This document shows positions 10,838 through 28,587 of a stretch of DNA of 64,000 nucleotides, piece by piece. The notes beneath the pieces were generated by a model. It was not told where the DNA came from. It worked only from the letters and a program-made list of their open reading frames with translations, and did no database searches. Each line of letters begins with the position of its first letter. The stretch's first letter is position 1. Source of the DNA: Candidatus Omnitrophota bacterium (GTDB lineage: Bacteria; Omnitrophota; Gorgyraeia; 2-01-FULL-45-10); assembly GCA_030695905.1 (NCBI GenBank), contig JAUYOL010000043.1, forward strand, positions 194,561-258,560, given 5' to 3'. Position numbers and translations under genes: made by a program.

Positions 10838-10915
10838 TGGTCGGGACGGGCGGATTTGAACCGCCGACCCCTTGCACCCCAAGCAAGTGCTCTAGCCGGG
10901 CTGAGCCACGTCCCG
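10838..10915 (-). tRNA. tRNA-Pro (anticodon GGG), CCA encoded
   Basis: Cloverleaf folded by hand from the reverse complement. Acceptor CGGGACG/CGTCCCG, D-stem GCTC/GAGC, anticodon stem CTTGC/GCAAG with loop TTGGGGT (anticodon GGG), T-arm GGCGG-TTCAAAT-CCGCC, discriminator A, then CCA. Confidence 0.9.
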
Positions 10916-12044: not shown

Positions 12045-12808
12045 TCTTCCTCCACAGAACCACTCTTTACCCAGCCAAGTTTACCGTCGATACGCTTTAT
12101 CCTTCTCCAACCGTTCCGCGTTTTCAATACAAGTACCTCCTGCCCCTCCCGGAGGGTAAAATACGTCGTCGACTTATCTATCGGTTCGTATTTACATTCA
12201 ACATCCTTAACCACCACTATACCGCGCGTCAATATCTCTTCCTCGTAGTATCTGACAGAGAATCCCGCCAGCGCCAGTATAAATAATAACAGTATTGGGT
12301 AAAATATAAATGTTGCCCTTCTTTTAAACAGAGGGCTTATTATACCGCCGGCTATCAGGCCTATAACAATGAGATAAAACGCTATCAATATCCTCGCGAC
12401 CCCATTTAAGGTAAACTCCCGGAATGGTATCTTCGCCAGCCACGCGAATTTATTGGGAGTTGTGGCCTGCAAGCCGGAATCTTCGGTTAGAGATTGCGCA
12501 TATGAAAGATTTGATTTTAAGTCGCTATCGGCCGGTATAAGCCTTATGGCTTTCTTGTAATAAAGTATCGCGTATCCGGTTTTACCTGTTTTAAAATAGG
12601 CGTTGCCCATATTGTAATATAAGGGCCCACTCTCAATCCCCCCATCAGCTATCTTCTGATATTCTTCTATAGCCTTATCATATTCTCTTTTTTCATAAAA
12701 AGAATTTCCGTTATAAAAAAGACGGGTTGGATCATTTGAGGCTTCCTGCCCAAATGCCACGCCAAAAGAAGACAGAAGTATCGCAAGCGCAAGTAAATGT
12801 TTTATCAT
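12041..12808 (-). CDS. batE: BatE-like TPR/SH3b membrane protein, last gene of the Bat operon
   Basis: 255 aa. Signal peptide, TPR repeats (YYNMGNAYFKTGK), two TM segments and a C-terminal SH3b-like GWVKSGS. Overlaps batD by 4 nt. Confidence 0.6.
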   Translation of the reverse strand: MIKHLLALAILLSSFGVAFGQEASNDPTRLFYNGNSFYEKREYDKAIEEYQKIADGGIESGPLYYNMGNAYFKTGKTGYAILYYKKAIRLIPADSDLKSNLSYAQSLTEDSGLQATTPNKFAWLAKIPFREFTLNGVARILIAFYLIVIGLIAGGIISPLFKRRATFIFYPILLLFILALAGFSVRYYEEEILTRGIVVVKDVECKYEPIDKSTTYFTLREGQEVLVLKTRNGWRRIKRIDGKLGWVKSGSVEEE

Positions 12809-14691: not shown

Positions 14692-15848
14692 TTCTTGTCC
14701 GGATCAGGCAAGGGAACCTGCTTTCTTCTCATGCGTATCGACTGGCCCGTTGCTTCTTCACCCTTGTACCCCTCGAGAAGCATCTTAGCTTCCTGTTCCG
14801 TCATCTCTTTGGACTCGCCTTCTGAAGCCTGGTAAAACTGCATATTTTGACCTTCTTCACTCTGACCCTGCTGTTCTTGCTCTTTTTTCTGCTCTTCCTC
14901 TTGTTTTCTTTGCTGATCCTGTTTTTTCTGTTCTTCTTGTCGCTGTTTTTGTTCCTCTTGCTGCTCCCGCTCTTCTTGCTTACGCTGTTCTTCTTCTTTC
15001 TTTTTTTGTTCCTCCTGCTCCTTCTTCTTCTCTTCCTCTTGTTGTTGCCTCTGATCCTGCTTTTGTTTTTCCTGTTGCTGCTTATCCTGCTCACCCTTAC
15101 CTTCAGATTTTTGCTGGTCCTGTTGCTTATCTTTTTCGCTTTCAGGCTTATCTTTATCCTGCTCTTTGCCGCCACCACCCTGACTCTGATCCTGCTTATC
15201 CTTCTTATCCTGGCCCTGTTTTTGCTGTTGGGGCTCTTGCTGCTGATCTTTCTGCTTATCCTTTTGTTTATCCTGCTGCTGTTTTTGGTCCTGCTGATTC
15301 TTGTCTTGCTGATTGGGCTGTTGCTGATCCTTCTTGTCCTCCTGCTTCTTATCCTTTTGGCTCTCCTGCTTCTTCTTTAACGCCATCAGCTTCTGATCTA
15401 CAAACTCATAATTATACTTGGCATCCCTATCATTAGGATTCAAGTCTATAGAACGCTTATAAAATTCCAGCGCTGTCTCATAGGATCCTTTGGCTTTCTC
15501 CATATCCGTTTTTGCTGCCGCGCTGCCAATCTTATATTGTGCGTTACCTATATTATAATCGGTGGGCGATAATATGCCCGATTCGCCCGCAGCCAGCGCT
15601 TTATTGTATGACTCTATAGCCGCGGTATAATTTTCCTTGCTATACAGCGCATCGCCCTTGTTAAAACGCAGCATAGCGCTATCCGATTTTTTTTCCAGCG
15701 CGGCGTCATATACCTTTATCGCTTCGTCATATTTTTTGTTATTATACAATAAATTACCTTTTTTTACATCAGCGGCGGTTGAGGCAAACAACGCCTGAGC
15801 GCTCAAAAAGAACGATAAAATTGTCAGAAAAACTACTCTACGCGTCAC
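14685..15848 (-). CDS. batC: BatC-like TPR protein with a long K/Q/E/D-rich low-complexity C-terminal region
   Basis: 387 aa. Signal peptide, TPR repeats (LYNNKKYDEAIKVYDAAL...) and a roughly 230-aa charged low-complexity tract. Confidence 0.65.
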   Translation of the reverse strand: MTRRVVFLTILSFFLSAQALFASTAADVKKGNLLYNNKKYDEAIKVYDAALEKKSDSAMLRFNKGDALYSKENYTAAIESYNKALAAGESGILSPTDYNIGNAQYKIGSAAAKTDMEKAKGSYETALEFYKRSIDLNPNDRDAKYNYEFVDQKLMALKKKQESQKDKKQEDKKDQQQPNQQDKNQQDQKQQQDKQKDKQKDQQQEPQQQKQGQDKKDKQDQSQGGGGKEQDKDKPESEKDKQQDQQKSEGKGEQDKQQQEKQKQDQRQQQEEEKKKEQEEQKKKEEEQRKQEEREQQEEQKQRQEEQKKQDQQRKQEEEQKKEQEQQGQSEEGQNMQFYQASEGESKEMTEQEAKMLLEGYKGEEATGQSIRMRRKQVPLPDPDKNW

Positions 15849-15850
15849 AG

Positions 15851-16852
15851 CTACCTTCTCCTCTCAGAAAAAAGCGACTCTATCAACAGGAGAGCTATCG
15901 CGAGGGCCAGAAATATCTGATATCTTTCCTTGTAGTGCTTCTTCATCTTCGTGTCCAGTTCCTGCTTTTCCAATTTAGAGATTACTTTATCATACAGTAA
16001 TATGAGCCCAAAATCGCTTTGTGTGGCATGAACATAGCTTCCGCCCGTAGCGACGGCTATTCTCTTTAACAGCTCTTCGTTTAATCTCGTCTTAACGGCC
16101 TGGCCGCGCTTATCGGCAAGGTATGCTCTCTCTCCGCGCTCATCTATGGTAGGAATAAGCTCTCCTTCCGGGGTTCCGACGCCGATGCAGTATATTCTTA
16201 TACCTGCCTGAGCGGCTTCGTTTGCTACGCTTATAGCATCGCCCTCGAGTTCTTCACCGTCGGTAATCAGCACCAGCACTTTAAATTTCTTCTCGGGCCC
16301 CTTAAACGCGTTCATCGCTTCTTTGATAGCGCCGGATACGGATGTTCCGGGCCTCGGTATCGTATCTGTATTCATATCGTCAAGCGCCAGAAGAAAACCA
16401 TTATAATCTATAGTCAAAGGGCATTGTAGAAACGCGGTTCCCGCAAATGCCACCAACCCCACCCTGTCTCCATTTAATTTTTTAACAAGATCCTTTATCG
16501 CAAGCTTCGATCTTTCGAGCCTATTGGGCCTGACATCGCGGGCAAGCATACTTTTCGAAACATCAACGGCTATCAGCATATCGAGGCCGATCCTTTTTAT
16601 CTCCTGCCACTCGAAGCCCCACTGCGGGCGGGCAAGTGAGAATATACACAAAAGAAGCGCGCTCGCTATCAGGACTATCTTCCAAATTTTGCGGGCAATA
16701 CTTACTGTGGGCGTTATCCCGCCCAACATATTCTTATCGGCGAATTTTTCCATCAGGCTCTCGCGCCGCCTCATCACCAGTATATAGAATATGATTATCA
16801 GGACCGCGGAAGAGATGAATATTGATATATATTTTATGTCGCCGTAATGCAT
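15851..16852 (-). CDS. batB: BatB-like vWA domain membrane protein
   Basis: 333 aa. N-terminal TMs, then a vWA MIDAS motif (LIAVDVSKSM). Bat operon context. Confidence 0.75.
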   Translation of the reverse strand: MHYGDIKYISIFISSAVLIIIFYILVMRRRESLMEKFADKNMLGGITPTVSIARKIWKIVLIASALLLCIFSLARPQWGFEWQEIKRIGLDMLIAVDVSKSMLARDVRPNRLERSKLAIKDLVKKLNGDRVGLVAFAGTAFLQCPLTIDYNGFLLALDDMNTDTIPRPGTSVSGAIKEAMNAFKGPEKKFKVLVLITDGEELEGDAISVANEAAQAGIRIYCIGVGTPEGELIPTIDERGERAYLADKRGQAVKTRLNEELLKRIAVATGGSYVHATQSDFGLILLYDKVISKLEKQELDTKMKKHYKERYQIFLALAIALLLIESLFSERRR

Positions 16853-16854
16853 AT

Positions 16855-17853
16855 TTAGGGCACCTTCAAAAATATTGTATTCGACAAAAATATCTCCAAT
16901 GCCAACAATATCAGCCCGGGAATAAGAAATATCGGGAATAGCTCTGTATATTCCCTGTATCCTAAATGCTCGATATTGGATTTTTCGAGCCTGTTTATTT
17001 CGTCATAAATACGCCTGAGCTTCTCGGAGTCCGATGCCAGGAAGTACTTGCCGCCGGTAAGGTCGGCTATCTTCTTCATCGACTCCTCGTCTATCTCTAT
17101 GGGTATGTTCCTGTAAACGGTCCTGCCGTAAAAATCTTTTAATGGATACGGTGAAAGGCCTTTGGTCCCTACAGCTATCGTGTATATCTTTATCTTCAAC
17201 GCCCTTGCCGCTTCCGCCGCAACAATAGGCGAAATATTTCCCGCGTTATTTACGCCGTCAGTAAGAAGTATTACGACCTTGCTCTTCGTCTTACTCGTCC
17301 TTAAGCGGTTTATCGAGCTCGCTATGGCCGAACCTATAGCGGTGGCGTCCTCTATCATGCCTATTCGCACCCTGTCCAGATTTTCCAATAACCAGCCGTA
17401 ATCCGACGTAAGCGGGCAAACTGTGTAGGCGCGAGCCGCAAACGCTACGAGGCCTATCCTGTCATCCTTCCTTTTCGCTATAAAGTCCTTTACTACTTCT
17501 CTTACAAGATCGTATCTATTTACCCTCTTGGAGCCGAGCATAAAATCTTCGGCTAACATACTGGTAGAAGTGTCGAGGGTCAGGACTATATCGACTCCTT
17601 CCGAAACCGTCTTTGAGCCTTCCAGCATAGCCTGCGGCCTTGCCAACGCTATTATCATCAATGCCAATGCGACTATCTTAAGAACTATCAGGGATTTCCC
17701 TAACCGCACGCGAGCGGTCTGCTTCAAATCCTTCAGGAGCTCTTCAGAAGAAAATACAAAGCTTGAGCCCGAACGCCTTCGCCTCTCGATGAATAATATA
17801 AGAGGCAGTAACAATAAAAGCCAAAAAACGGCCGGGTCTTTAAACAGGAACAT
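16855..17853 (-). CDS. batA: BatA-like vWA domain membrane protein
   Basis: 332 aa. TM segments, vWA MIDAS (VLTLDTSTSM) and a C-terminal TM. Confidence 0.75.
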   Translation of the reverse strand: MFLFKDPAVFWLLLLLPLILFIERRRRSGSSFVFSSEELLKDLKQTARVRLGKSLIVLKIVALALMIIALARPQAMLEGSKTVSEGVDIVLTLDTSTSMLAEDFMLGSKRVNRYDLVREVVKDFIAKRKDDRIGLVAFAARAYTVCPLTSDYGWLLENLDRVRIGMIEDATAIGSAIASSINRLRTSKTKSKVVILLTDGVNNAGNISPIVAAEAARALKIKIYTIAVGTKGLSPYPLKDFYGRTVYRNIPIEIDEESMKKIADLTGGKYFLASDSEKLRRIYDEINRLEKSNIEHLGYREYTELFPIFLIPGLILLALEIFLSNTIFLKVP

Positions 17854-18757
17854 ACTCTCCTTTCGTCTCCTCTATAAACTTTTTCGCTGTGGTGAATACC
17901 GACCCTATCTCGTCTTTTGAGGGCGCATGCTTGGCAAACTTCACCAGATCGCATGCCTCCATAAAAGTTTTTAGCAATTCCCTATATCCTGTCGATATCT
18001 TCAATGAATCACCCAGGCTCGCTAAAAACTCCTGTGTCGTCATCTCCGGAGCTCTTAATTTAAAGACTGTCTCTATATAGCGCCGGACTGCGTCGGAGAC
18101 GGTTACGTAATAATCCTTAACATTGCCTGTCTTCGCGAATTCCGCCTTAGCCGATTCCAGCGCGTCTATAGCGGCCTCGTAAGGAAGTTTTGGCGGCGGG
18201 CTTTTCTTGAATTTTTTGAATAATTTTATTATCAGCCATAATACAAGCAATGCCGCCGCTATCCATAAGGCAAGTTTAAGAAAACTGAATGGATATATCG
18301 GCCCCTTGATATCCTTTACATCATAGAGGGCGACGTTTCTTGGCAGAACGCTTTCGACTGTAAACTCAAATTCCGGGGTTTTTAGAGTCCTCCAGTTGCC
18401 CTCTCCCTTCTCGCGGTACTTTATCTCTATCCCGGGGATCTTCCGCTTGCCCACATAGTAACCGGTTATATCGAGCCAGTTTACATAATGATGACTGCCA
18501 AACAAGGACCTCTTAATCTCTTTCCCTGAATCTTTTATCTCGCACTCACCGATCTTGCTATCCTTAAACTTAGGAAATTCTATCTCAAGATCGAGTTTCG
18601 AAAATATTTCGGCCTTATAATGTATCCTATCGCCTATAAGGATCCTCTTCCTGTTGATAGTTGTCTTTATAGAAGATGTGTCTTCATCGGCTGCCAGCGC
18701 GATATTTGATATAAGCAGAACACCGGTAATGAATATCATTCTATTGAAAAACTTCAC
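17840..18757 (-). CDS. DUF4381-like membrane protein with an extra N-terminal periplasmic domain
   Basis: 305 aa. Signal peptide, a roughly 140-aa beta-rich region, a TM (LALWIAAALLVLWLIIKLF), then a cytoplasmic helical domain with ...QEFLASLGD...CDLVKFAKHAPSKDE. Conserved position between DUF58 and batA. Confidence 0.5.
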   Translation of the reverse strand: MKFFNRMIFITGVLLISNIALAADEDTSSIKTTINRKRILIGDRIHYKAEIFSKLDLEIEFPKFKDSKIGECEIKDSGKEIKRSLFGSHHYVNWLDITGYYVGKRKIPGIEIKYREKGEGNWRTLKTPEFEFTVESVLPRNVALYDVKDIKGPIYPFSFLKLALWIAAALLVLWLIIKLFKKFKKSPPPKLPYEAAIDALESAKAEFAKTGNVKDYYVTVSDAVRRYIETVFKLRAPEMTTQEFLASLGDSLKISTGYRELLKTFMEACDLVKFAKHAPSKDEIGSVFTTAKKFIEETKGEYVPV

Positions 18758-19632
18758 TACATGCGCCTCTTTCTCATCCGGAAAAATTTTATAAATTCTT
18801 CTATGTATGATTTATCGGTACTTATATCTATGTGGTCCACTCCGACGGATCCGAATAATCTCGTCCTCTCACTTTGCATCTGGCTCGCTTTTTTCGCGTA
18901 TTTTTCTCTGACTTTAGCGCTTGAGGTATCGATCACATAGGGTCTTCCGCTTTCGGCGTCTGCGAGTTCGATTATGCCCGCGTCCGGCAGATGGCCTTCC
19001 CTGGGATCGGTTATGGTAATGGCGACGACATCATGTTTTTTGTTAGCTATGGAGAGAGGTTTTTTGAAATCATCCGCGAAGAAATCCGAGATTACAAATG
19101 TGACGGCCCTGCGCCTTATAACATTATCCAAGTAGCGCAGCGCCCCGGCAAGATCGGTCCCTTTGCCTTTAGGGGTAAAATACAAAGCTTCCCTTACCAC
19201 CCTTAGAACGTGATGAAGGCCTTTTCTGGGCGGGACAAACTTCTCAATCCTGTCCGTAAATATTATCAAGCCCACGCGGTCGTTATTCTGTATGGCGGCA
19301 AATGCCAGGACCGCCGATACTTCAGCGGCGAGTTCTTTCTTGAATCTTTTGGTAGTTCCGAAGCTTGAGGAGCTTGAGGCGTCGAGCAGGATCATTACGG
19401 TAAGCTGACGCTCTTCGACGTACTTCTTTACAAAAGGTGAACCGATGCGCGCCGTAACGTTCCAGTCTATGGAGCGTATCTCATCGCCGGGCTGGTATTC
19501 CCTTACCTCGTCAAACTCCATGCCACGGCCTTTGAATACGCTTTCATACTGGCCGGCGAGAAAGTCCGTGACCAGCCTCGAGGTCGTTATTTCAATGCGC
19601 CGTATTTTGCGTAATACTTCCTTCGGCAGCAT
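18757..19632 (-). CDS. DUF58 domain protein (MoxR-partner, vWA-like)
   Basis: 291 aa. Contains GQYESVFKGRGMEFDEVREYQPGDEIRSIDWNVTAR, the hallmark DUF58 motif. Confidence 0.8.
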   Translation of the reverse strand: MLPKEVLRKIRRIEITTSRLVTDFLAGQYESVFKGRGMEFDEVREYQPGDEIRSIDWNVTARIGSPFVKKYVEERQLTVMILLDASSSSSFGTTKRFKKELAAEVSAVLAFAAIQNNDRVGLIIFTDRIEKFVPPRKGLHHVLRVVREALYFTPKGKGTDLAGALRYLDNVIRRRAVTFVISDFFADDFKKPLSIANKKHDVVAITITDPREGHLPDAGIIELADAESGRPYVIDTSSAKVREKYAKKASQMQSERTRLFGSVGVDHIDISTDKSYIEEFIKFFRMRKRRM

Positions 19633-19633
19633 C

Positions 19634-20629
19634 TTACGGTACTTTTACTTCCTCAAAAATCTTTTTTATAATATCTTCGGAGTTCTTGTCTTCCGCCTCC
19701 GCCTCATAGCTTGCGATTATGCGGTGCCTTAATACGTCCATGCCGATAGTCTTTATATCCTGCGGAACAACATAACCGCGTCCCTGTAAAAACGCGTAAG
19801 CCTTTGCGGCCATCGATAGGTATATGCTTGCGCGGGGGGACGCGCCATACTGGATAAGCCCAACCAGCTCTTTAAGCCTGTATGCGTTAGGATCTCTGGT
19901 GGCGAATACTATGTCGATAATATATTTCTCGATTCTTTCGTCTATATAAATTTCATCGACCACTTTACGCGCTTTTATTATCTCGTCCGGAGTAACCACC
20001 GCTGCCACAGTGAGTTTTTTATCCGTAACCGCCATACGCTTCATTATCTTGTGCTCTTCTTCCTTGTTCGGGTACTCTATCTTTAATTTCAACATGAAGC
20101 GGTCCACCTGGGCTTCAGGCAGCGGATATGTGCCTTCGTGTTCTATTGGGTTCTGCGTCGCCAGAACAAGAAACGGCTCATCGAGTTTATAAGTATTTTC
20201 GCCTATAGTCACCTGTCTTTCCTGCATGGCTTCGAGTAAAGCGCTCTGTACTTTCGCGGGGGCCCTGTTTATTTCATCGGCTAAAATTATATTGGCAAAT
20301 ATGGGGCCTTTCTTGGTCGTAAATAAACCGTCCTTCGGACTGTATATAAGAGTTCCTATTAGATCCGCAGGTAAAAGATCGGGTGTAAACTGTATTCTCT
20401 GAAATTTGGTCTTTATTGCCTGGGCAAGCACCTTGACCGACAATGTCTTGGCAAGTCCCGGTACTCCTTCTATCAGAATGTGGCCGTTTGCCAGAAGGCC
20501 CACGAGCAGCCTCTCCAATAAATATCTTTGGCCTACTATCACCTTCTCCATTTCGGCAAGAAGTTTATTTACAAAATCGCTCTCTTTCTTTACCTTCTCA
20601 TTTATCGCTTCTACTGACGTCCCCACCAT
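19634..20629 (-). CDS. moxR: MoxR-family AAA+ ATPase
   Basis: 331 aa. Walker A (EGVPGLAKT) and Walker B (ILADEINRA). MoxR architecture. First gene of the Bat operon. Confidence 0.9.
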   Translation of the reverse strand: MVGTSVEAINEKVKKESDFVNKLLAEMEKVIVGQRYLLERLLVGLLANGHILIEGVPGLAKTLSVKVLAQAIKTKFQRIQFTPDLLPADLIGTLIYSPKDGLFTTKKGPIFANIILADEINRAPAKVQSALLEAMQERQVTIGENTYKLDEPFLVLATQNPIEHEGTYPLPEAQVDRFMLKLKIEYPNKEEEHKIMKRMAVTDKKLTVAAVVTPDEIIKARKVVDEIYIDERIEKYIIDIVFATRDPNAYRLKELVGLIQYGASPRASIYLSMAAKAYAFLQGRGYVVPQDIKTIGMDVLRHRIIASYEAEAEDKNSEDIIKKIFEEVKVP

Positions 20630-20640
20630 ATTTTCCTCCT

Positions 20641-21063
20641 CTATTGAATATTCTCTAACTCTCTATTCAGGTCTTTTAACTGCAGATTCATGAACTTCAA
20701 CAAAACTACTTTGTCCAGATATTCGAGACTAAGAGGCTTGGTTATATAATCGTTTGCGCCTAATTCCATGGCCTTCTTCATCACATCATCGTCCTTAACG
20801 CCTGTAACCATAATAATGACGACATCCTTATCAATCTCTCTTATCTTCTCAAGTGTTTCGATGCCGTCCATGCCCCTCATGTTTATATCCAGCAGGATAA
20901 TCCGGGGCTTTTCCTTTGCCACGATCTTCAGGGCCTCTTTGCCGTTTAACGCGTTGAATACCTCATAATTACGCGCGGTAAAGAACTCATAAAAAAATGA
21001 GTCGATACCCATCTGGTCATCGACAGTCAATATTTTACAAATCGGCTTTTTGGTTTCCTTCAT
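20641..21063 (-). CDS. single-domain response regulator (CheY-like receiver)
   Basis: 140 aa. Acidic pocket DD, phospho-acceptor Asp in ILLDINM, conserved T in MVTG and K in YITKP. No output domain. Confidence 0.85.
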   Translation of the reverse strand: MKETKKPICKILTVDDQMGIDSFFYEFFTARNYEVFNALNGKEALKIVAKEKPRIILLDINMRGMDGIETLEKIREIDKDVVIIMVTGVKDDDVMKKAMELGANDYITKPLSLEYLDKVVLLKFMNLQLKDLNRELENIQ

Positions 21064-21090
21064 AATGGTATGATTATACCATAAGAAAGA

Positions 21091-24000
21091 TTATGCTGCA
21101 GTAAGTAGTTCGAGCAAGCGCTTATTTAGTTTAGGTATGTCGTTGACAGGCGCTGAAGCGGCTTTGGGCAGGTCAAAGATAAGTCTGCGGGCAAATTCTT
21201 TCGGATCATCCGATATTGCATCGGGCGGATTGTCAAATGGCTTGCCTGCCATGACGGAGTATATTCTCAAAAGTGCGGGCAGGCCGTTATCTGAATGCAA
21301 TGCTCTCAAAGCCGCCACAATGCCTTCCAATTGTATAAAGTCTTCTCCTTTAAATATAAGCATCTTTATATCTTTGTCTTCGGGAACCAATGCGAGATGT
21401 TCCTCGATAGAGAGGGCTATATCAACCATTGCGTTTGTATTTTCGGCGCGAATCTTTTTTATTGCTTCACTAATGGATGTTCCGCTCTCCAATATCCATA
21501 CTTTTTCAGACACATTCTTATTATCTCTAAAAGCCTTATTAACGCGCGTAATAAAACTGCCTTGCTGCTGCTCCAGCGGTATTACACCCTGTTCTATGAT
21601 GTGCCATAATACTTTATTTTCGGAAATAGCAGGCTGTATCTGCATGTTTATTTCATGCAAAATTGCCGCCCTAACCAACGCCCTGGAGATCTTTGCCTCA
21701 CGCTTTGCCAATTCGCAAGTAACAACATTTAATAATGTCCTCGTATAATCTACATCCTCGCCGATCATCATATCGGTAAACCTGTAATAATCAGGCTTAT
21801 TTTCAATCGGTTCAAGCACTCCAAGCGCAACGAGTCTTTTGGCTTCGGATTTATCGAGCGGGATGCCGCCATTTCTATTTAGCGCCGCTTTCATTAATTT
21901 GTCGTTATCTCTTATCGCTTTCATTACTTTTATCGACCAGCCTCTAACACGATTATAGACTTCACCCGATTCGCCTTCGCTCATTCTGCCCATGCTGACC
22001 AATAGTTTCAAAAGATATCTACCCTTGGCAGAACGCTGCAGTTTACGCCGAGCGCTGTCTAACAACTGCTGAATCCGCCTGCAGCTCACCTTGTATTTTC
22101 TACTCAATTCTTCTTGCGTGCTTGGCTCATTGCCAAAAAGTCCATAATACCCAATAGTCACTTCGCGCTGTCTATCAGTAAGGATTGACATCGCTGACTT
22201 TACAGCATCTCTCATTACAGATTCCTCTTCAGCAGCGGATGAAGGCTCTTCCGATGCCTCCACTTCCATTAAATTCATATCTTTTCTATTTAGGGGCATT
22301 TCTGTCACACGCCTATCACGGATTTCTGCCACATCAAGATAGTGGCCTAACGCGAGGCTGGAACTTCTTATTTCTTCTAAATCTGAGAATTTGTTGTTCA
22401 AAGTCCACACAAAACCCGGATAGCGTTTCTCTATATACTGCCTGAAGGTGAATATGCCGTCTTTTGTTAACAATTCCTTTTCTTCCATATATATTCCATA
22501 AAGATACTGCAACCTTTTTACTATACGCGCCTCGGTCCAGAATGGCTTGCCTCGACTATAATGAGTCGTATCCCAATTTTCTTCAGTGGCCTCCCCAGTA
22601 TCAACCGGAGCCTCCCCGTATCCAACATCAGCAACTCTTGTCAGCACCTCTTCCGCTTTGGCCCGCTCTATATCACTAAGATCGCTCCCATCCGGTTTCC
22701 CGGGCGTAAGACCACCTAAAAATTCATCAAGCTCATTGGGTCTATCTTGTAACAATTCGAATGCCGCAAACAGATCCAGCGCTTCCATTGCTTTTGATTT
22801 CGCTTCTTTGTATCTGCCATCATTGAATGCTCTAACCGCTTCACTTATCAAATCATTTACATATCCACCCGTCCATCCGTAAAGACTGTTCCTTTCTATG
22901 GGTCTTCCCACCAGCGAACCTTCGCCGCGAAGAGCAACTTCGCGTATTTCGGGAGAATCATCTTCTACCCCGAGTTCTCTCAATTTCTCACATATTAATC
23001 GCGGCGTTGCGTTTATATGATCTATATCCCAAAACCCCTTTCGTACGGTCGGGATCCAATGCTTTGCCGCTGAAATCACAACAGCTGGCACTCCTCGTAA
23101 CAGGGCCAAATGAAAAATAGCTGTATCAATAGTGACAACCCCTTCTGCCTGAGAAACAAAATCCAGCACTTTTCCCCTGTCCTTGAATTTTTTTACAATT
23201 AATTTCGGTGAGCCATGGATCCTACTTCTCACGGCATTTTCTATTTTTTGTGTTTCCCGCGCTTCATAAGAACTGGTACCGCTATTAAGCGCGACAACAA
23301 AACCTTTATCGATTAACTCCAGGATGGCCCCCACCCAGAGCTTCCTAAGCTGCCCGGATAGCTCTGCGTTAGTCCAGGAATGAGGATTAACAAAGATAAG
23401 GCCTTTCTGGTAATCTTGCCTGGGATAAACGATATTTACATCAGCTGAATTTAGACCAGCCAGGGATATATTATTTCTGGTAACCGAATAAATATCGCGC
23501 CTGTCCGGCTTATTAGATAACAATATCTGGCTAAATCCGAAAATAGACAATCGACTCACTGCTTTGAATTTTAAATTTTTCCCAAAATCAATAAAAACAT
23601 CGAATCTCTTATTTTTTAGAAACTGCTCTGATTCTTCATGAGATACATACCTGACCCTTGGGTCCATATTTTTAATTAATTCCGGCGCATAGGTAATAAC
23701 GGATATTTCTTCTACATCCGGCCAGGTATTTAGTATCGACGCTATGGTTAAAGGCAGCGAAACAATAGCCGAACCCCACGGTGAAAAATATTCATGCACT
23801 ATGGCAACGGATCTGACGCTTTTTATACCAGAAATAAGTTCTTTACATTGCGAGTAACTGTTAAACCCATCTAAATCTAAGGTTGTCGTCTTAACATTTT
23901 CATTGATAGTCTGTTCCTTTGGCGAATCCTTAACCGGCGGTGCGATACTCGGATTCGATTCGAGATGTCTGCGCGCGACATCCTGCACTTCCCCTGTCGT

Positions 24001-27000
24001 AGCATGGGCTTTTAATCTTGAAAGTTCTTCAGAAATTTCTGCTATTTGTGCACCATCCATATTATCAGCAGCATGATAATTATCGCCTTCTTGAACAATA
24101 AGACCGGCGCTGACAAGCTTACTTAAATCTTTTCGTGCCGTTGATACGGCGATTTGTCTCTTTCCGCCATTAGTTTCTATCATGACATCACCGCACAATC
24201 TATCGAACGGCACCCATCCTCTTTGGTAGTTATTTGTAAGCAGATCGAAGAACGTTGCGACATGTTCTGGAGCATGCGATGGCTTTACTGCTTCTTTAGC
24301 AGCCATCATTGCCCCCACAGCCTTCTTCAAGTTGATAAATTCACAACCCTTCGGCCCGACATGAATACTGAGTCCATATTTAAGCAAATCTTCTGCTCTT
24401 ATTATCCGCTTTTCAACAGGAATCCACTCTAAACCTTGTTCATCAAGTCTAAAACCTTCTTTTACATAATATGTGTTTCCCATATCAGCAGGTTCAACCT
24501 GTGAGTTAACTATCCTTTTCATATCAAATGTCGTCCACCCGTCCTCGAACGTAACATTAAGCGCGCCGATCACCATATCGTTGTCTCCGAAGCGCGCAAG
24601 TCCTATGGCATGCTCGGGCCTGTCTGTTTCAAGATAGTGATATGCTCCGTCGCTGAAGTTCGCATATAAAGCAGGGAGTGAGAATAGTTTTTTTCGGACA
24701 TCCCTTTTAGCAGGATCCGCATCCTCCATACGTGGGACGGGCGATGACTTCTCCTGAGCATTTCGATACTTGTGCTGGCTTCCATATATCTCTCCATTAA
24801 ATATTAAATTGAACCCAGGCATAAATGTATACATAAAATACAGCAGATTTCTATCCTGATAACTTAACATGGACCATGGGTCGCCGAAATCAAAGGCATC
24901 GTGTTCGGGCCCAAGATAGATAAAATTATCACGTATATCGGCAGGCATTGTCTCCGTGCTGCGCAAATACGAAATTAGTGCCTGGAGCCTGGAGGGGTCC
25001 AGTGGATCCATCAGGGCCTCTGTAGCATAATTCCTGCATTCCCATCCATAGAACGAAGCATCTCTTCCTTTTGCAACCGCCAGGAGATCTCTATATCTTT
25101 CAAATCCTTCAAACATAAAGAAAGCATAAGGATTTGTTTTACGGACTGCTTCAACAAATTGGGAAGAAAGATTATTGCTGACTTCTATATGCCAGTTATC
25201 TTTTATCCTGTCCGGGAACGTTGCAAGCGCGGTACCTACCCGCATTCCGTCCACACCTTTGCTAAGCCAAAACCTTCCTGTCTCTATCGCATCCCTGACA
25301 ACATCCGGATGCGAAAGATCCGGCTGGGCCAATGAACACCACCTACGGGGATAATCTGTTTTGAGGCTTACGAGGTCGGTCGCAGAAACTAAAAAAAGCG
25401 CTGACTCATCAGGGATGATTATGGCTGGGGCAACATAGCTCGCCCCCATCAGACCTTTTCGTATCTCATCGTCAGGCCGACGGTATGGTATTTCCCTGCC
25501 GTCCACATTTATCATTCCCTCGTGCTTCAATTCACGTGGGTCCATGTTTTTTAATTTGGCTGAAATCTTTTCACCTAATTCTATTTTTCGGCGAAGTTCA
25601 TTTGGCTGTATCGTTTGCCCGCGGAACAGCTTCGGATCCCTATCCAGCCCATAATTTCCATCACTGACATTGGTGTATAAATATCTTTCTGGATAGGACT
25701 TGCATAAAGGGCTGGACTTGGCGACATGCTGATTCGCTATCCAATCAACAATCACCATAAGCCCGACACTGTGCGCTTTTTTAATAAAATCTTCCAATTC
25801 TTTAAAAGAACCTGCCCGTTTATCTATATTTTTAGGATCGATAATTTCAAAAGGGCTGCCTGTATTTTCAATAAGCCCCAGCAGATACATGTATTTAACG
25901 CCAGAGTCCGCCAGGAATGATAATTCCTTGACTGCGGATTTCAAACCGGACATGCCTGTTGTTACATCATAATAGTCGCGAAGCACCATTTCATATATGG
26001 TCTTTGTATTTCTTTTCTTTCTTATTGCGGGCAGGTAGACGTCATGCGCATATCGCCTCTCCATCGCAACTGCGGTAACAAGCTCATTGGCCCTTAAATA
26101 TGAATTTCGCATCAGATGCTTCCACTTGCTTTTGCCCTCTTCATAAAAAAGCCTTGAAGATATCTCACACTTCGCAAATATATCCGCAGGGGCTTCGTGA
26201 TAAAATTTTTCGTTATCTGCCGCAAAACCGTCATCTGTTTCTTTTGTATAAGAACCAATAAAGAAACCGCTTCCCCCACCTGTCGTCTCATCGTAATCAA
26301 CTATCCATTCGACCGGGCCAGCGCCTTTAATGGCTATATTCACTCCGCCGTTTTCACCCGCACGTCCATCGGAAGTACCCGCAGCTTCTTCGAGAGGCCG
26401 GGGATTGGTTATACATAGATCGCAACCTATTGCCTGCATCTTAAGAAGCTTCGCGTCAGAGTTGGGCACATAGACAAATCTCCCATTGAATTCCGGTATA
26501 TCATTTGCCCAGTGCCGAAATTCCTGAACCCAGAATGGCATATATTCAGGACCGCCTACAACTAATTGCATGCCCAATCCATATACTTTTTTACGCCGGC
26601 CATTATCAAATATCTTGCTAAGATTGGATTCCACGATCCCTTTATTGTAGGATTGCGCTAAATCCGGTATGTCTCGGAACCACAGCGTTTTCAATTCGTC
26701 CATTGTGAAAGATTTATCTTTATCCGCGGTGAGAATATGGACCAAAAATCTTAGCATGGGATACTGACTTTTATAATCCACCAGTCTTCTCACTTCCCAC
26801 CCGGTAAGTTTATTTGGATCGAGCTTAACACCGGTCCTAATCTCGATCTCTGCAAAGGCTTCTTTTTTGCCATTTTCATGGATCTGCCACAGGTCTTCCT
26901 CACTGGGAACACCCTTCTTATCTTCAAATGCTTTCAGCTCGTCTGACTTCCATGTTTCGCCCGAACCATTCAGGACACCTACCACCGGCTTATCAAATTC

Positions 27001-28587
27001 GCTTCCGTACAGGTTCCTGAATAGCCTTTCGGTTGCTTTTGCATGCTCGTTGCTGACCGCATTTATAACATCGGCTAACTTCATCGCAGCATAACAGAAG
27101 TCAACAACGCCATTCGGCCTCAAAAATGCCGATCTTAGCTGAGCTGCTTTCTTTTTGGGCAGACCTATTACATACATCATCCGGTCCGCATTACTCTTGA
27201 CCGAAGCGGGCGAAAATGTCTCAAGGCCCGCCGGAACCAGCGTATGATTGGTATATACAATGGCGGTATTATTATATGATTCGTCTGCCCTCATCTGCGC
27301 CGCTGCTACAACTGTATGAGCTTCGTTAAGATGCAATATATCCGGTTTGATATGCATTTTTTTCATAAATGCATACACCGCCTTGCCGAATACTATCTCC
27401 TGGGTGAACCGGTGGGCCCTGTCATCTGGATACAATTCATCAAAAACCTTTGACATGAAAATGTAATCTGTTGCACCGCCCCTGCTTAACTTGTATACTT
27501 CTACCATAACTTTTGGATTATAGCGGTCCTCTTCGTCCTCTGTCCTGGCTTCAGGGTCTTCATCCCACGCACGGACCATGATTGCATCACCATTCACAGA
27601 AACCTTTTCCAGTATCCCTCTTTTTATCAGCTCCTCATAACTTACTTTTACCTTTTTACCATCCTTCCTTAGATGAGAGTAGCCTATCTGCGCGCCGAGA
27701 GCATTTATGCCTATTGCGGCCATGCCTTCGAGCTTGTCCCCGAAATATGCGCCAAGCCCGCCCTTAGTATTAGCATTCTGCGCTTCGTATCCTGCAAATT
27801 CCGGGATATTACCTTCCAGAGAAAGGGATAACACCGTCTTACCTTTTAACTCCGGAATATTTTGCGCTATCCAATTTTCTGTAAATTTACCTCCATTGCT
27901 CGCCGCAATATTAATATCATTATCATCTCTGTCTAATCCGTGTTCACTGTATAGTACATAGATATTGTCCAGATCTATAGAGCCTTTTACACTCTCGTAT
28001 ATCTTTTTGACTCGGGGGGTCGCTTCCCTGTCAACTTGGGCCGCAAACTTTCTCGCTTCGTCATGAGTGGCAGGATCTAAAATCCACCCCCTCATCTCGG
28101 CATATGTCTTCCCAAGCTCGAGGCGCTTGCTTTCCCATCTTGTTATTTTGTTCTTTTCATGGTTTCTTAGGGTGGCATTATTAAAATATCTTTTATCTAT
28201 ATAAATAATGGGCACGCCTGCCTGACGGCCCAATCCTATATGGGCGAGCTGGCCCGTATCTTTTGCCAAATTCTTAATAGCGACTAAAATGATTTTTTGA
28301 GTTTTATCAAGAACTCTTATGGTCTCGGCATCATCAACATCTTCCGGCTGGACCAATTTAAGCTGTGGGATTCCACCGGGCGGAAGCTTGGACTTGATAT
28401 TATTATTGAGGGCAGCATGGGATAGTTTTGTATATCCTGCTATATACTCGTCAGAGAATTGCTTCTGAGTTATTCGAAGCTGTGGGGCGAGTGCGAATGC
28501 TATATCATTACAAAAAAATAGACATACTATTGCCATTGTGATTACTCTTAGCAGCAATATATGCCTTACTTTGTATTGGATTAACAT
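21091..28587 (-). CDS. giant 2498-aa multidomain protein: N-terminal signal/anchor, GT35 alpha-glucan-phosphorylase-like, GH13 alpha-amylase-family-like, GT9 heptosyltransferase-like and sigma-70 region-4-like HTH modules
   Basis: One uninterrupted 7497-nt ORF. Ordered by-eye motif matches: KGGLGAYFGDKLEGMAAIG, HLNEAHT, YTNHTLVPAGLE and EEAAGTSDGRAGENGG (GT35); GVKYMYLLGL...AHSVGLMVIVDWIANQH, GVDGMRVGTA and GPEHD (GH13 regions I, II, IV); VVTIDTAIFHLALLRGVPAVVIS (GT9 C-terminal motif); LTDRQREVTIGYYGLFGNEPSTQEELSRKYKVSCRRIQQLLDSARRKLQ (sigma-70 region 4). Confidence 0.85.
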   Translation of the reverse strand: MLIQYKVRHILLLRVITMAIVCLFFCNDIAFALAPQLRITQKQFSDEYIAGYTKLSHAALNNNIKSKLPPGGIPQLKLVQPEDVDDAETIRVLDKTQKIILVAIKNLAKDTGQLAHIGLGRQAGVPIIYIDKRYFNNATLRNHEKNKITRWESKRLELGKTYAEMRGWILDPATHDEARKFAAQVDREATPRVKKIYESVKGSIDLDNIYVLYSEHGLDRDDNDINIAASNGGKFTENWIAQNIPELKGKTVLSLSLEGNIPEFAGYEAQNANTKGGLGAYFGDKLEGMAAIGINALGAQIGYSHLRKDGKKVKVSYEELIKRGILEKVSVNGDAIMVRAWDEDPEARTEDEEDRYNPKVMVEVYKLSRGGATDYIFMSKVFDELYPDDRAHRFTQEIVFGKAVYAFMKKMHIKPDILHLNEAHTVVAAAQMRADESYNNTAIVYTNHTLVPAGLETFSPASVKSNADRMMYVIGLPKKKAAQLRSAFLRPNGVVDFCYAAMKLADVINAVSNEHAKATERLFRNLYGSEFDKPVVGVLNGSGETWKSDELKAFEDKKGVPSEEDLWQIHENGKKEAFAEIEIRTGVKLDPNKLTGWEVRRLVDYKSQYPMLRFLVHILTADKDKSFTMDELKTLWFRDIPDLAQSYNKGIVESNLSKIFDNGRRKKVYGLGMQLVVGGPEYMPFWVQEFRHWANDIPEFNGRFVYVPNSDAKLLKMQAIGCDLCITNPRPLEEAAGTSDGRAGENGGVNIAIKGAGPVEWIVDYDETTGGGSGFFIGSYTKETDDGFAADNEKFYHEAPADIFAKCEISSRLFYEEGKSKWKHLMRNSYLRANELVTAVAMERRYAHDVYLPAIRKKRNTKTIYEMVLRDYYDVTTGMSGLKSAVKELSFLADSGVKYMYLLGLIENTGSPFEIIDPKNIDKRAGSFKELEDFIKKAHSVGLMVIVDWIANQHVAKSSPLCKSYPERYLYTNVSDGNYGLDRDPKLFRGQTIQPNELRRKIELGEKISAKLKNMDPRELKHEGMINVDGREIPYRRPDDEIRKGLMGASYVAPAIIIPDESALFLVSATDLVSLKTDYPRRWCSLAQPDLSHPDVVRDAIETGRFWLSKGVDGMRVGTALATFPDRIKDNWHIEVSNNLSSQFVEAVRKTNPYAFFMFEGFERYRDLLAVAKGRDASFYGWECRNYATEALMDPLDPSRLQALISYLRSTETMPADIRDNFIYLGPEHDAFDFGDPWSMLSYQDRNLLYFMYTFMPGFNLIFNGEIYGSQHKYRNAQEKSSPVPRMEDADPAKRDVRKKLFSLPALYANFSDGAYHYLETDRPEHAIGLARFGDNDMVIGALNVTFEDGWTTFDMKRIVNSQVEPADMGNTYYVKEGFRLDEQGLEWIPVEKRIIRAEDLLKYGLSIHVGPKGCEFINLKKAVGAMMAAKEAVKPSHAPEHVATFFDLLTNNYQRGWVPFDRLCGDVMIETNGGKRQIAVSTARKDLSKLVSAGLIVQEGDNYHAADNMDGAQIAEISEELSRLKAHATTGEVQDVARRHLESNPSIAPPVKDSPKEQTINENVKTTTLDLDGFNSYSQCKELISGIKSVRSVAIVHEYFSPWGSAIVSLPLTIASILNTWPDVEEISVITYAPELIKNMDPRVRYVSHEESEQFLKNKRFDVFIDFGKNLKFKAVSRLSIFGFSQILLSNKPDRRDIYSVTRNNISLAGLNSADVNIVYPRQDYQKGLIFVNPHSWTNAELSGQLRKLWVGAILELIDKGFVVALNSGTSSYEARETQKIENAVRSRIHGSPKLIVKKFKDRGKVLDFVSQAEGVVTIDTAIFHLALLRGVPAVVISAAKHWIPTVRKGFWDIDHINATPRLICEKLRELGVEDDSPEIREVALRGEGSLVGRPIERNSLYGWTGGYVNDLISEAVRAFNDGRYKEAKSKAMEALDLFAAFELLQDRPNELDEFLGGLTPGKPDGSDLSDIERAKAEEVLTRVADVGYGEAPVDTGEATEENWDTTHYSRGKPFWTEARIVKRLQYLYGIYMEEKELLTKDGIFTFRQYIEKRYPGFVWTLNNKFSDLEEIRSSSLALGHYLDVAEIRDRRVTEMPLNRKDMNLMEVEASEEPSSAAEEESVMRDAVKSAMSILTDRQREVTIGYYGLFGNEPSTQEELSRKYKVSCRRIQQLLDSARRKLQRSAKGRYLLKLLVSMGRMSEGESGEVYNRVRGWSIKVMKAIRDNDKLMKAALNRNGGIPLDKSEAKRLVALGVLEPIENKPDYYRFTDMMIGEDVDYTRTLLNVVTCELAKREAKISRALVRAAILHEINMQIQPAISENKVLWHIIEQGVIPLEQQQGSFITRVNKAFRDNKNVSEKVWILESGTSISEAIKKIRAENTNAMVDIALSIEEHLALVPEDKDIKMLIFKGEDFIQLEGIVAALRALHSDNGLPALLRIYSVMAGKPFDNPPDAISDDPKEFARRLIFDLPKAASAPVNDIPKLNKRLLELLTAA

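What the first reader, a model, noticed from the sequence alone, without database searches (positions are those of the whole stretch)
25228..26370. Both enzyme-like modules of the giant protein appear to lack their key catalytic residue (GT35 PLP-lysine to Arg; GH13 nucleophile Asp to Gly)
In the GT35 signature, EASGTGNMKFMLNG aligns as EEAAGTSDGRAGENG. This puts Arg (codon near 26365-26367) where the PLP Schiff-base Lys is invariant. In GH13 region II, GxDGFRxDxxxH aligns as GVDGMRVGTALA. This puts Gly (near 25234-25236) at the nucleophile Asp and leaves no trailing His, while the region IV HD is retained. If the by-eye alignments are right, these modules would be non-catalytic binding or scaffold domains (pseudoenzymes). 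Alternatively they may use non-canonical chemistry.
Basis: inference. Interest (0 to 1): 0.6.

Follow-up and report, generated by a model that had tools for sequence, protein, structure and literature searches.

The report
Cofactor-less phosphorylase-like module plus dead amylase module
A 2,498-residue Omnitrophota protein has a glycogen-phosphorylase-like module from a large, unstudied clade that replaced the vitamin-B6-anchoring lysine with arginine yet kept the rest of the active site, next to an amylase-like module that lost its catalytic aspartate, so only the amylase module looks like a dead enzyme.

Summary
Both substitutions are real. R742 (CGT, 26362-26364) aligns with the PLP lysine of solved phosphorylases: Segatella copri GP K609 and E. 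coli MalP K646. G1118 (GGT, 25234-25236) sits at the GH13 nucleophile position at the end of strand beta4. The two cases differ.

**GT35-like module.** The Arg is not a local decay.
- 138 of 167 related sequences carry it, in one large clade (Omnitrophota, Planctomycetota, Elusimicrobiota, CPR).
- The sugar- and phosphate-binding residues shared by phosphorylases and glycogen synthases are almost invariant in that clade.
- The Tyr that stacks on PLP is lost together with the Lys, and a basic residue appears in the Gly loop.
- The module is intermediate between GT35 and GT5 in sequence and in fold.
- I read it as a PLP-independent, probably still active, alpha-glucan GT-B. Its donor is unresolved (NDP-glucose, or Pi/G1P).

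**GH13 module.** Its family normally keeps the full catalytic set.
- The nucleophile is missing in 4 of 36 modules, including the window protein (Gly) and its syntenic orthologue (Asn).
- All 4 are long Omnitrophota-type proteins.
- It is most likely a non-hydrolytic glucan-binding module.

"Both are pseudoenzymes" is therefore only partly supported.

The parts
21091..28587 (-). Giant ORF, 2498 aa (stop codon included). NCBI's identical protein P0001 starts at M17.
28483..28569 (-). The only strongly hydrophobic segment outside the folded modules (aa ~7-35): a signal peptide or N-terminal membrane anchor.
   Evidence: Kyte-Doolittle scan. The one other window above threshold (aa ~1820-1841) lies inside the GT9-like region. 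Consistent with the topology survey in bioRxiv 10.64898/2026.06.07.730766.
27808..28494 (-). N-terminal conserved domain (aa 32-260) with no Pfam hit. Shared with other long proteins that carry different cargo.
26038..27807 (-). GT35-like / GT5-like GT-B module (aa 261-850), a member of the Arg-variant clade.
27763..27765 (-). K275, the basic residue directly before the GGLG glycine loop (TKGGLG).
   Evidence: K/R in 78 of 106 Arg-state sequences, against 1 of 7 Lys-state sequences.
26770..26790 (-). R600-R601...Y605-K606 (VRRLVDYK), equivalents of GP K568/R569/Y573/K574 (phosphate site).
   Evidence: Aligned to IKRIHEYKRQ of E. coli GlgP/MalP. About 127 of 130 conserved in the Arg clade.
26458..26460 (-). 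S710, at the position of the Tyr that stacks on PLP (GP Y648; LENYRV / LEDYDM).
   Evidence: Y in 10 of 11 Lys-state sequences but only 13 of 138 Arg-state sequences.
26347..26391 (-). Motif EEAAGTSDGRAGENG (aa 733-747), equivalent to EASGTxxMKxxxNG of GT35.
26362..26364 (-). R742 (CGT) at the PLP Schiff-base lysine position.
   Evidence: Aligned to ScGP K609 and EcMalP K646.
24328..26037 (-). GH13 (alpha-amylase family) module, aa 851-1420.
   Evidence: PF00128 5e-10. Profile vs PDB 4e-20. AF2 pLDDT 89.2. Foldseek vs PDB 3e-22.
25726..25746 (-). GH13 region I, DWIANQH (D948, N952, H954), retained.
25234..25236 (-). G1118 (GGT) at the catalytic nucleophile Asp position (region II, end of beta4).
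25108..25110 (-). E1160, the region III general acid/base, retained (FFMFEGF, after beta5).
24898..24903 (-). H1229-D1230, the region IV His-Asp, retained (GPEHD, after beta7).
23086..23319 (-). Weak GT9 (heptosyltransferase)-like stretch, aa 1757-1834. Possibly a third GT-B-like module.
   Evidence: PF01075 E 0.062, below cutoff. No PDB sequence hit.
22036..22194 (-). Sigma-70 region 4 helix-turn-helix domain, aa 2132-2184.
   Evidence: PF04545 7e-7, above cutoff. 1tty RpoD region 4, 1.5e-6.
21094..21987 (-). C-terminal conserved domain (aa 2201-2498), shared with other long proteins (P0002, P0003, P0014, P0042, P0043).

Best explanation
The protein is an N-terminally anchored or secreted multi-module protein of a Candidatus Omnitrophota bacterium. 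Its two glucan-enzyme modules have different status.

(1) GT35-like module. It belongs to a large, uncharacterised sister clade of the TIGR02094-type alpha-glucan phosphorylases. In this clade the PLP-anchoring Lys is Arg, the PLP-stacking Tyr is small or polar, and a Lys/Arg has appeared in the glycine loop. The residues that GT35 and GT5 enzymes both use to hold the glucosyl unit and a phosphate (equivalents of H377, N484, R569, Y573, K574, E672, T676) remain nearly invariant. The module therefore cannot use covalently bound PLP. It most likely still binds alpha-glucan and a phosphate-bearing co-substrate, and it probably catalyses retaining glucosyl transfer without PLP. The donor could be an NDP-glucose, as in glycogen synthase, whose diphosphate would fill the vacated PLP-phosphate site next to the two extra basic residues. 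Alternatively it could be Pi/G1P, as in PLP-free GT4 phosphorylases. The loss of the PLP residues and the conservation of the core are shown here. Catalysis and donor identity are inferred.

(2) GH13 module. It comes from a partner family that normally has the complete GH13 catalytic set. In this orthologous group the nucleophile Asp has been lost (Gly here, Asn in the orthologue), while the fold, R1116, E1160 and H1229/D1230 are kept. It can no longer form the covalent glucosyl-enzyme intermediate and most likely acts as a glucan-binding or positioning module (inferred).
For: Register of both substitutions.

Arg state:
- About 40 close homologues share EACGTSDQR.
- 138 R, 11 K and 18 other among 167 family sequences. 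E672eq is 138/138, T676eq 136/138, and RRxxxYK about 127/130.
- Y648eq is Y in only 13/138 Arg-state sequences, against 10/11 in the Lys state.
- A basic residue precedes GGLG in 78/106 Arg-state against 1/7 Lys-state sequences.
- A neighbour-joining tree puts the Arg state in one clade of 116 leaves, separate from the Lys cluster.
- The window protein keeps every clade invariant.

Intermediate character:
- A diverse Arg-clade profile scores 113.7 bits to EcGlgP and 71.2 to the window's own GT5 GlgA. The Lys-clade profile scores 163.9 and 27.2.
- The review PMC11046441 states the hypothesis that PLP replaced a nucleoside monophosphate in an NDP-sugar-dependent proto-GT35.

GH13:
- The nucleophile is D in 32 of 36 modules. 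It is G, N, A or V only in long Omnitrophota-type proteins.
- Five more such proteins have lost another catalytic residue. None of about 20 tri-domain GT35like-GDE_C-GH13 proteins has.
- P0002 is the syntenic orthologue (rpsP-trmD-rplS-rnhB-giant-moxR-DUF58-batA). It keeps Arg and has Asn at the nucleophile and Tyr at the region IV Asp.
- The GH13 module is still 67% identical between the two orthologues, so it is maintained.
Against: No biochemical data exist for any member of the Arg clade, so strong conservation could reflect ligand binding without turnover. The correlated changes were counted on related sequences and are not phylogenetically independent events. Fusion partners point both ways (GDE_C and GH13 are catabolic, UDPGP is anabolic, PGM is either), so they do not fix the donor. 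If the N-terminal segment is a cleaved signal peptide, the protein would be outside the cytoplasm, where NDP-sugars are not expected. Curated thresholds of both GT35 and GT5 full-length models are missed.
Confidence: 0.55

Rival explanations
1. Both modules are pseudoenzymes. The GT35-like module is also catalytically dead and serves only to bind glycogen or another protein. The giant protein is then a scaffold that tethers glucan or partner enzymes at the membrane.
For: The PLP lysine is essential in every characterised GT35 enzyme. The neighbouring GH13 module is demonstrably degenerate. The protein also contains non-enzymatic modules, such as sigma region 4 and shared N- and C-terminal domains. 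Omnitrophota long proteins are described as largely membrane-anchored multi-domain assemblies.
Against: Catalytic-core residues are almost invariant across a clade whose representatives are clustered at 50% identity and which spans several phyla, including standalone proteins of 500-650 aa. Pure binding modules usually lose such residues, as the GH13 module does. The changes are concerted (Lys to Arg, Tyr to Ser/Thr/Ala, a gained Gly-loop Lys/Arg) rather than random.
Confidence: 0.2
2. The GT35-like module still uses PLP (or pyridoxal plus phosphate). The cofactor is held non-covalently, or through another lysine such as K275, and the module is an ordinary glucan phosphorylase.
For: On my own knowledge, the Schiff base itself is not catalytic in phosphorylase: the reduced enzyme is active. 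The phosphate-site residues are conserved. IMG annotates clade members as glucan or starch phosphorylase.
Against: The aromatic residue that stacks on the pyridine ring is lost together with the Lys (13/138 against 10/11). Two extra positive charges appear where the PLP phosphate would sit. No curated phosphorylase model reaches threshold.
Confidence: 0.07
3. The GH13 module remains catalytic by non-canonical chemistry. Examples are another carboxylate acting as nucleophile, or a nucleophile-less 'glycosynthase/phosphorylase-like' reaction that uses an external anion.
For: R1116, E1160, H1229 and D1230 are kept in the window protein and the module is well conserved. Engineered nucleophile-to-Gly GH13 mutants can work as glycosynthases with activated donors (my own knowledge).
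Against: Four different residues (G, N, A, V) occupy the position in relatives. The orthologue has also lost the region IV Asp and P0006 the region III Glu, which is what relaxed selection on catalysis predicts. No conserved replacement carboxylate is visible in the alignment.
Confidence: 0.07
4. G1118 is a sequencing or assembly error of a GAT Asp codon (a single A-to-G change).
For: GGT differs from GAT by one transition. The source is a metagenome-assembled genome.
Against: Flanking residues are also diverged from consensus (GMRVGTALA against GFRIDAALS). The syntenic orthologue from an independent sample also lacks the Asp. The NCBI protein is 100% identical, although it probably derives from the same assembly.
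Confidence: 0.03

Closest known systems
TIGR02094-type ('clade 2') alpha-glucan phosphorylases, GT35, e.g. Segatella copri GP (PDB 9l6i/20yr)
GT5 glycogen/starch synthases (E. coli GlgA 2qzs, SS4 6gne, GBSS 6gnf)
   Different: Sequence similarity is much weaker than to GT35 (TIGR02095 30.5 bits against a cutoff of 328). No Glycos_transf_1 C-domain hit. The Lys is shifted by one position (TKGGLG against KTGGL). The position 8 residues after the catalytic Glu is Arg rather than Tyr/Ile. The window already encodes a canonical GlgA at 35736-37124.
GH13 alpha-amylase family enzymes nearest in sequence (Thermotoga AmyB 4gkl, alpha-glucosidases 3wy1/6y9t, TreS)
   Same: (beta/alpha)8 fold with regions I-IV alignable. 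D948, H954, R1116, E1160, H1229 and D1230 are present.
   Different: The nucleophile Asp is replaced by Gly. A large insertion (about aa 975-1075) is specific to the long-protein versions.
GH13-fold pseudoenzymes such as the heavy chains of heteromeric amino-acid transporters (rBAT/SLC3A1, 4F2hc)
   Same: A GH13 fold used for a non-hydrolytic role. rBAT chains appear among the sequence hits. That these are non-enzymatic is my own knowledge.
   Different: They are eukaryotic membrane glycoproteins with an unrelated function, and there is no specific relationship. Here the family is otherwise catalytically intact and the loss is recent and lineage-specific.
Tri-domain GT35like-GDE_C(GH133)-GH13 proteins of about 1540 aa (Planctomycetota and others; P0017-P0034)
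   Same: The same Arg-variant GT-B module (36-39% identity) and the same GH13 family (41-45% identity), in the same order.
   Different: They have an amylo-alpha-1,6-glucosidase domain between the two modules and a complete GH13 catalytic set. They lack the N- and C-terminal 'chassis' domains and the sigma region 4.

Membership tests
GT35 glycogen/alpha-glucan phosphorylase | Homologous GT-B fold with phosphorylase-type active-site motifs | tested here: met
GT35 glycogen/alpha-glucan phosphorylase | Lysine in E-A-S-G-T-x-x-M-K that forms the Schiff base with PLP | tested here: not met
   R742 aligns with ScGP K609 and EcMalP K646.
GT35 glycogen/alpha-glucan phosphorylase | Aromatic residue stacking on the PLP ring (GP Y648) | tested here: not met
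   S710 in the window protein. Y in only 13/138 Arg-state sequences.
GT35 glycogen/alpha-glucan phosphorylase | Phosphate-site Arg/Lys (GP R569, K574) and the Glu of the EASG motif (E672) | tested here: met
   R601, K606 and E734.
GT35 glycogen/alpha-glucan phosphorylase | Reaches curated family score (PF00343, TIGR02093/TIGR02094) | tested here: not met
   PF00343 17.9 against 27. TIGR02094 120.9 against 191.7. TIGR02093 19.2 against 552.9.
GT35 glycogen/alpha-glucan phosphorylase | Phosphorolysis of alpha-1,4-glucan to G1P | not testable with these tools
   Needs an enzyme assay.
GT5 glycogen/starch synthase | Glyco_transf_5 N-terminal domain above threshold | tested here: met
GT5 glycogen/starch synthase | Full-length GlgA model (TIGR02095) and a Glycos_transf_1 C-domain | tested here: not met
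   TIGR02095 30.5 against 328. No PF00534 hit.
GT5 glycogen/starch synthase | KTGGL motif lysine | tested here: inconclusive
   TKGGLG: a Lys is present but shifted by one residue.
GT5 glycogen/starch synthase | ADP-/UDP-glucose-dependent chain elongation | not testable with these tools
   Needs an enzyme assay.
GH13 alpha-amylase family | (beta/alpha)8 catalytic domain with conserved regions I-IV; Pfam PF00128 above threshold | tested here: met
   39.5 bits against 22. Profile 4e-20. Model and Foldseek 3e-22.
GH13 alpha-amylase family | Catalytic nucleophile Asp at the end of beta4 (region II) | tested here: not met
   G1118.
GH13 alpha-amylase family | General acid/base Glu (region III) and transition-state Asp (region IV) | tested here: met
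   E1160 and D1230. The region III register rests on the pairwise alignment and on strand position in the model. One profile alignment (6y9t) placed it differently.
Pseudoenzyme (GH13 module) | Homologue of an active enzyme family lacking an indispensable catalytic residue, with the loss conserved in orthologues | tested here: met
   Window G, syntenic orthologue N. The family is otherwise D in 32/36 modules.
Pseudoenzyme (GH13 module) | Demonstrated absence of catalytic activity | not testable with these tools
   Needs an enzyme assay.

The most novel reading that the evidence does not exclude
The Arg clade is a surviving PLP-independent lineage of phosphorylase-like GT-B enzymes that uses a nucleotide-sugar (or another diphosphate-bearing donor). 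It would be a living representative of, or a reversion to, the hypothesised NDP-sugar-dependent 'proto-GT35' that links glycogen synthases and glycogen phosphorylases. It would also be the commonest sugar-metabolism domain ('starch synthase catalytic', PF08323) listed in the survey of Omnitrophota long proteins.
Probability: 0.2. Interest if true: 0.8.

Novelty: new variant of a known kind. Interest (0 to 1): 0.55.

Why it matters
Every characterised GT35 enzyme depends on covalently bound PLP. How a GT-B glycosyltransferase came to use a vitamin-B6 phosphate in place of a nucleotide is an old open question, and the hypothesis is restated in PMC11046441.

This Arg clade offers a direct way to test that idea. 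It has at least about 100 clusters at 50% identity among the best hits. It occurs in Omnitrophota, Planctomycetota, Elusimicrobiota and CPR bacteria. It has lost the PLP lysine and the stacking Tyr but kept the shared catalytic core, and it sits between GT5 and GT35 in sequence and in fold. Small standalone members exist for expression.

It also affects annotation. These proteins are currently called either 'glycogen/starch synthase' (PGAP) or 'glucan phosphorylase' (IMG). The PF08323 domain is the most frequent sugar-metabolism domain listed for Omnitrophota long proteins, so metabolic readings of those proteins depend on what it does.

The repeated loss of GH13 catalytic residues in the long-protein versions suggests that some 'multi-enzyme' giants are partly built from binding modules rather than from enzymes.

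Tried and rejected
- Fusion-partner ('Rosetta stone') inference of the donor. Precomputed Pfam lists and a scan of 24 further multi-domain Arg-clade proteins gave a mixed bag: GDE_C, GH13, PGM, ROK, PFK, transaldolase, UDPGP, GT4/GT1, alanine dehydrogenase. Inconclusive.
- Gene neighbourhoods of a standalone member (P0059) and of two tri-domain proteins (P0022, P0034). No consistent glycogen operon.
- Global hmmalign of E. coli MalP/GlgP/GlgA to the module profile broke in the C-terminal half because of large insertions. I used the local domain alignments instead.
- Look-up of the exact window protein in the contig index: not on record.
- No Pfam hit for the N-terminal domain. Only sub-threshold GT9 and HTH hints for aa 1400-1960, and no PDB sequence hit there.
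- Literature searches for a described GT35-like family without the PLP lysine, or for the phosphorylase-GDE fusion, found nothing specific.
- 'No trailing His in region II' was rejected as evidence of inactivity, because it is family-wide and shared with active GH13 relatives.
- Model coordinates are not exposed, so no pocket or distance analysis around R742 was possible.
Full report
**What is there.** The finding lies inside a single ORF, 21091..28587 on the minus strand, of 2498 aa. Its neighbours are ordinary bacterial chromosome genes. Upstream are trmD, rplS and rnhB. Downstream are a response regulator, moxR, DUF58 and batA. An identical protein (from M17) is deposited as 'MAG: glycogen/starch synthase [Candidatus Omnitrophota bacterium]'.

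Domain scans and local BLAST give the following layout:
- an N-terminal hydrophobic segment, aa ~7-35;
- a conserved N-terminal domain without a Pfam hit, aa 32-260;
- a phosphorylase/synthase-like GT-B module, aa 261-850;
- a GH13 module, aa 851-1420;
- a poorly defined middle part with a sub-threshold GT9-like stretch;
- a clear sigma-70 region 4 domain, aa 2132-2184;
- a conserved C-terminal domain, aa 2201-2498.

**Checking the observation.** The motif EEAAGTSDGRAGENG is aa 733-747, and R742 is codon CGT at 26362-26364. The motif GVDGMRVGTALA is aa 1111-1122, and G1118 is codon GGT at 25234-25236.

For R742:
- Pairwise phmmer against all PDB sequences aligns E734...R742 without internal gaps to EASGTSGEK of the Segatella copri phosphorylase (9l6i), ending on K609. 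The structure paper identifies that residue as the one carrying PLP (PMC12912991).
- A profile built from 15 family members gives the same register against 9l6i (E 6e-26) and E. coli GlgP.
- The same register holds against E. coli MalP, whose EASGTGNMK ends at K646, the PLP lysine named in the review PMC11046441.

For G1118:
- Pairwise and profile alignments place it under the nucleophile Asp of several solved GH13 enzymes: 5m99, 4gkl, 3wy1 and 6y9t.
- In the AlphaFold model of the module (pLDDT 89.2), G1118 is the last residue of strand beta4, E1160 follows beta5 and H1229-D1230 follow beta7. These are the canonical positions of the GH13 triad.
- Foldseek confirms the GH13 fold, at 3e-22.

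The only corrections are a one-codon offset for the Arg, and that the missing His after the nucleophile is a family-wide trait. The nearest active GH13 enzymes share that trait.

**The GT35-like module is not a local decay product.** In about 40 homologues found by the first database search, the motif reads EACGTSDQR(T/S)xxNGG with the Arg invariant. The only Lys was in a genuine phosphorylase at the bottom of the list.

A profile search of 1.84 billion cluster representatives found 1966 relatives at E <= 1e-3, of which 139 at E <= 1e-30. At the PLP-lysine column, the 167 sequences in hand that have a residue there divide into 138 Arg, 11 Lys and 18 others.

Within the Arg state:
- the equivalent of GP E672 is 138/138;
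- T676 is 136/138;
- the phosphate-site RRxxxYK (GP K568/R569/Y573/K574) is about 127/130;
- NG...W (N484/W491) is 126-127.

The window protein has all of these.

Two further positions change together with the Lys:
- The Tyr that stacks on the PLP ring (GP Y648) is Tyr in 10/11 Lys-state sequences but in only 13/138 Arg-state sequences. It is S710 here.
- A Lys/Arg directly precedes the GGLG loop in 78/106 Arg-state sequences against 1/7 Lys-state sequences. It is K275 here.

These counts come from related sequences and are not independent events. A neighbour-joining tree places the Arg state in one clade of 116 leaves, with sporadic V/D/A/K exceptions. The Lys sequences form a separate cluster.

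Named members come from Sedimentisphaerales (Planctomycetota), Elusimicrobiota, Candidatus Falkowbacteria and Omnitrophota. They include standalone proteins of 500-650 aa. Pipelines call them 'glycogen/starch synthase' or 'glucan phosphorylase'.

**Position between GT35 and GT5.** By sequence, the nearest characterised family is the TIGR02094-type alpha-glucan phosphorylase (6.9e-35, but below its cutoff). Pfam sees only the GT5 N-domain, PF08323.

A diverse Arg-clade profile scores 113.7 bits against E. coli GlgP and 71.2 against the window's own canonical GlgA. A Lys-clade profile of similar depth scores 163.9 and 27.2. The Arg clade is thus less phosphorylase-like and more synthase-like than its Lys sister.

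This bears on the hypothesis, restated in PMC11046441, that PLP took over the place of a nucleoside monophosphate in an NDP-sugar-dependent proto-GT35. On my own knowledge, the residue eight positions after the catalytic Glu is the second Glu of the EX7E motif, which contacts the nucleotide ribose in many retaining GT-B enzymes. It is the PLP lysine in GT35, and it is Arg here.

**How the module most likely works.**
- Shown: the PLP-specific residues are gone, and the glucosyl- and phosphate-binding core common to GT5 and GT35 is under strong conservation.
- Inferred: the module still binds alpha-glucan and a phosphate-bearing co-substrate, and probably catalyses retaining glucosyl transfer without PLP.
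- In favour of a diphosphate donor such as an NDP-glucose: removing the PLP phosphate and adding two basic residues leaves a strongly positive pocket.
- Also possible: a PLP-free Pi/G1P reaction, as in GT4 trehalose phosphorylase (my own knowledge).
- Not decisive: fusion partners. GDE_C plus GH13 suggests degradation, UDPGP suggests synthesis, and PGM fits both. Gene neighbourhoods did not help either.

**The GH13 module is a lineage-specific pseudoenzyme candidate.** Across 36 modules of this GH13 family, regions I-IV read D...N.H / R.D / E / HD.
- The nucleophile is Asp in 32. It is Gly (window), Asn (P0002), Ala (P0010) or Val (P0006) in the other four.
- P0002 has also lost the region IV Asp, and P0006 the region III Glu.
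- P0008 and P0011 (Glu to Gly), P0013 (His to Tyr), P0009 and P0056 carry other catalytic losses.
- All of these are long proteins of the Omnitrophota type. None of the roughly 20 tri-domain GT35like-GDE_C-GH13 proteins has any loss.

P0002 is the syntenic orthologue of the window gene, with the order rpsP-trmD-rplS-rnhB-[gene]-moxR-DUF58-...-batA. The orthologue therefore conserves the Arg, and it also lacks the nucleophile, with a different residue.

The module is still 67% identical between the two orthologues, so it is maintained. The most likely role is glucan binding or positioning.

**Comparison with the known, and novelty.** Dead GH13 folds are known, for example the transporter heavy chains that appear among the hits. 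That half of the finding is a new member of a known kind.

For the other half, I found no description of a phosphorylase-like clade lacking the PLP lysine. West-Roberts et al. and a 2026 preprint note 'GT5/starch synthase' domains as among the most frequent domains in Omnitrophota giant proteins. Neither comments on their active site.

I rate the whole as a new variant of a known kind, with interest 0.55. It is not categorically new, and no function is demonstrated. It does make an old question about the origin of PLP use in phosphorylases experimentally approachable.

Noticed in passing
window 22036-22194 (-), aa 2132-2184 of the giant protein: A clear sigma-70 region 4 (-35 element / beta-flap binding) helix-turn-helix domain sits inside a protein otherwise made of carbohydrate-enzyme-like modules (PF04545 above cutoff; Thermotoga RpoD region 4, 1tty, 1.5e-6). 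The relative P0003 carries a sigma-70 region 2 Pfam hit.
   Followed up: partly
window 27808-28494 and 21094-21987 (-): The N-terminal (aa 32-260) and C-terminal (aa 2201-2498) domains have no Pfam family. They recur at the ends of other long proteins with different cargo (P0042 with HATPase_c, P0043, P0044, P0014), and the N-domain recurs internally in P0003. They look like a shared 'chassis' for variable modules.
   Followed up: partly
window 23086-23319 (-), aa 1757-1834: A sub-threshold GT9 (heptosyltransferase)-like stretch (TIDTAIFHLALLRGVP resembles the GT9 DSGxxHLA motif). It may be a third, degenerate GT-B-like module. There is no PDB sequence hit.
   Followed up: partly
window 35736-37124 (-): A canonical GT5 glycogen synthase GlgA (462 aa; KTGGL; PF08323 7e-86 plus Glycos_transf_1). 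The organism therefore has ordinary ADP-glucose-type glycogen synthesis in addition to the Arg-variant module.
   Followed up: partly
L005 (orthologous locus of P0002) compared with window 20641-23790: The syntenic orthologue is 2151 aa. By BLAST it shows no match to roughly aa 1590-2215, the stretch with the GT9-like and sigma region 4 parts, although it has about 280 unmatched residues of its own there. The small response-regulator gene at window 20641-21063 is absent between the giant gene and moxR in that locus.
   Followed up: no
P0017-P0034 (about 1540 aa; Planctomycetota and unnamed metagenomes): A conserved tri-domain architecture: Arg-variant GT35-like, amylo-alpha-1,6-glucosidase (GDE_C/GH133) and GH13, with a full GH13 catalytic set. 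Formally it is a phosphorylase-like module fused to a eukaryote-style indirect debranching enzyme.
   Followed up: partly
L002 614-3349 (+): About 4.6 kb from a standalone Arg-variant gene in a Sedimentisphaerales contig lies a 911-aa gene combining GH57 and Glyco_transf_5 domains, another unusual glucan-enzyme fusion.
   Followed up: no
P0080 (916 aa): A single Lys-state sequence (EGTSNMK) nested inside the Arg clade in the NJ tree. It could be a reversion or a misplacement. It has Phe at the Y648 position.
   Followed up: no
window 12805-20629 (-): A complete Bat/MoxR-type cluster directly downstream of the giant gene: moxR AAA+, DUF58, an unknown ORF, batA/VWA, TPR proteins and batD. It is conserved in the orthologous locus.
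   Followed up: no
window 1-64000: Nearly all long ORFs lie on the minus strand and GC skew is negative in every 2-kb bin, as expected for one replichore with strong gene-strand bias. The only clear plus-strand gene is a CHASE2-GGDEF protein at 41679-43331. tRNA-Pro(GGG) is at 10838-10915.
   Followed up: no
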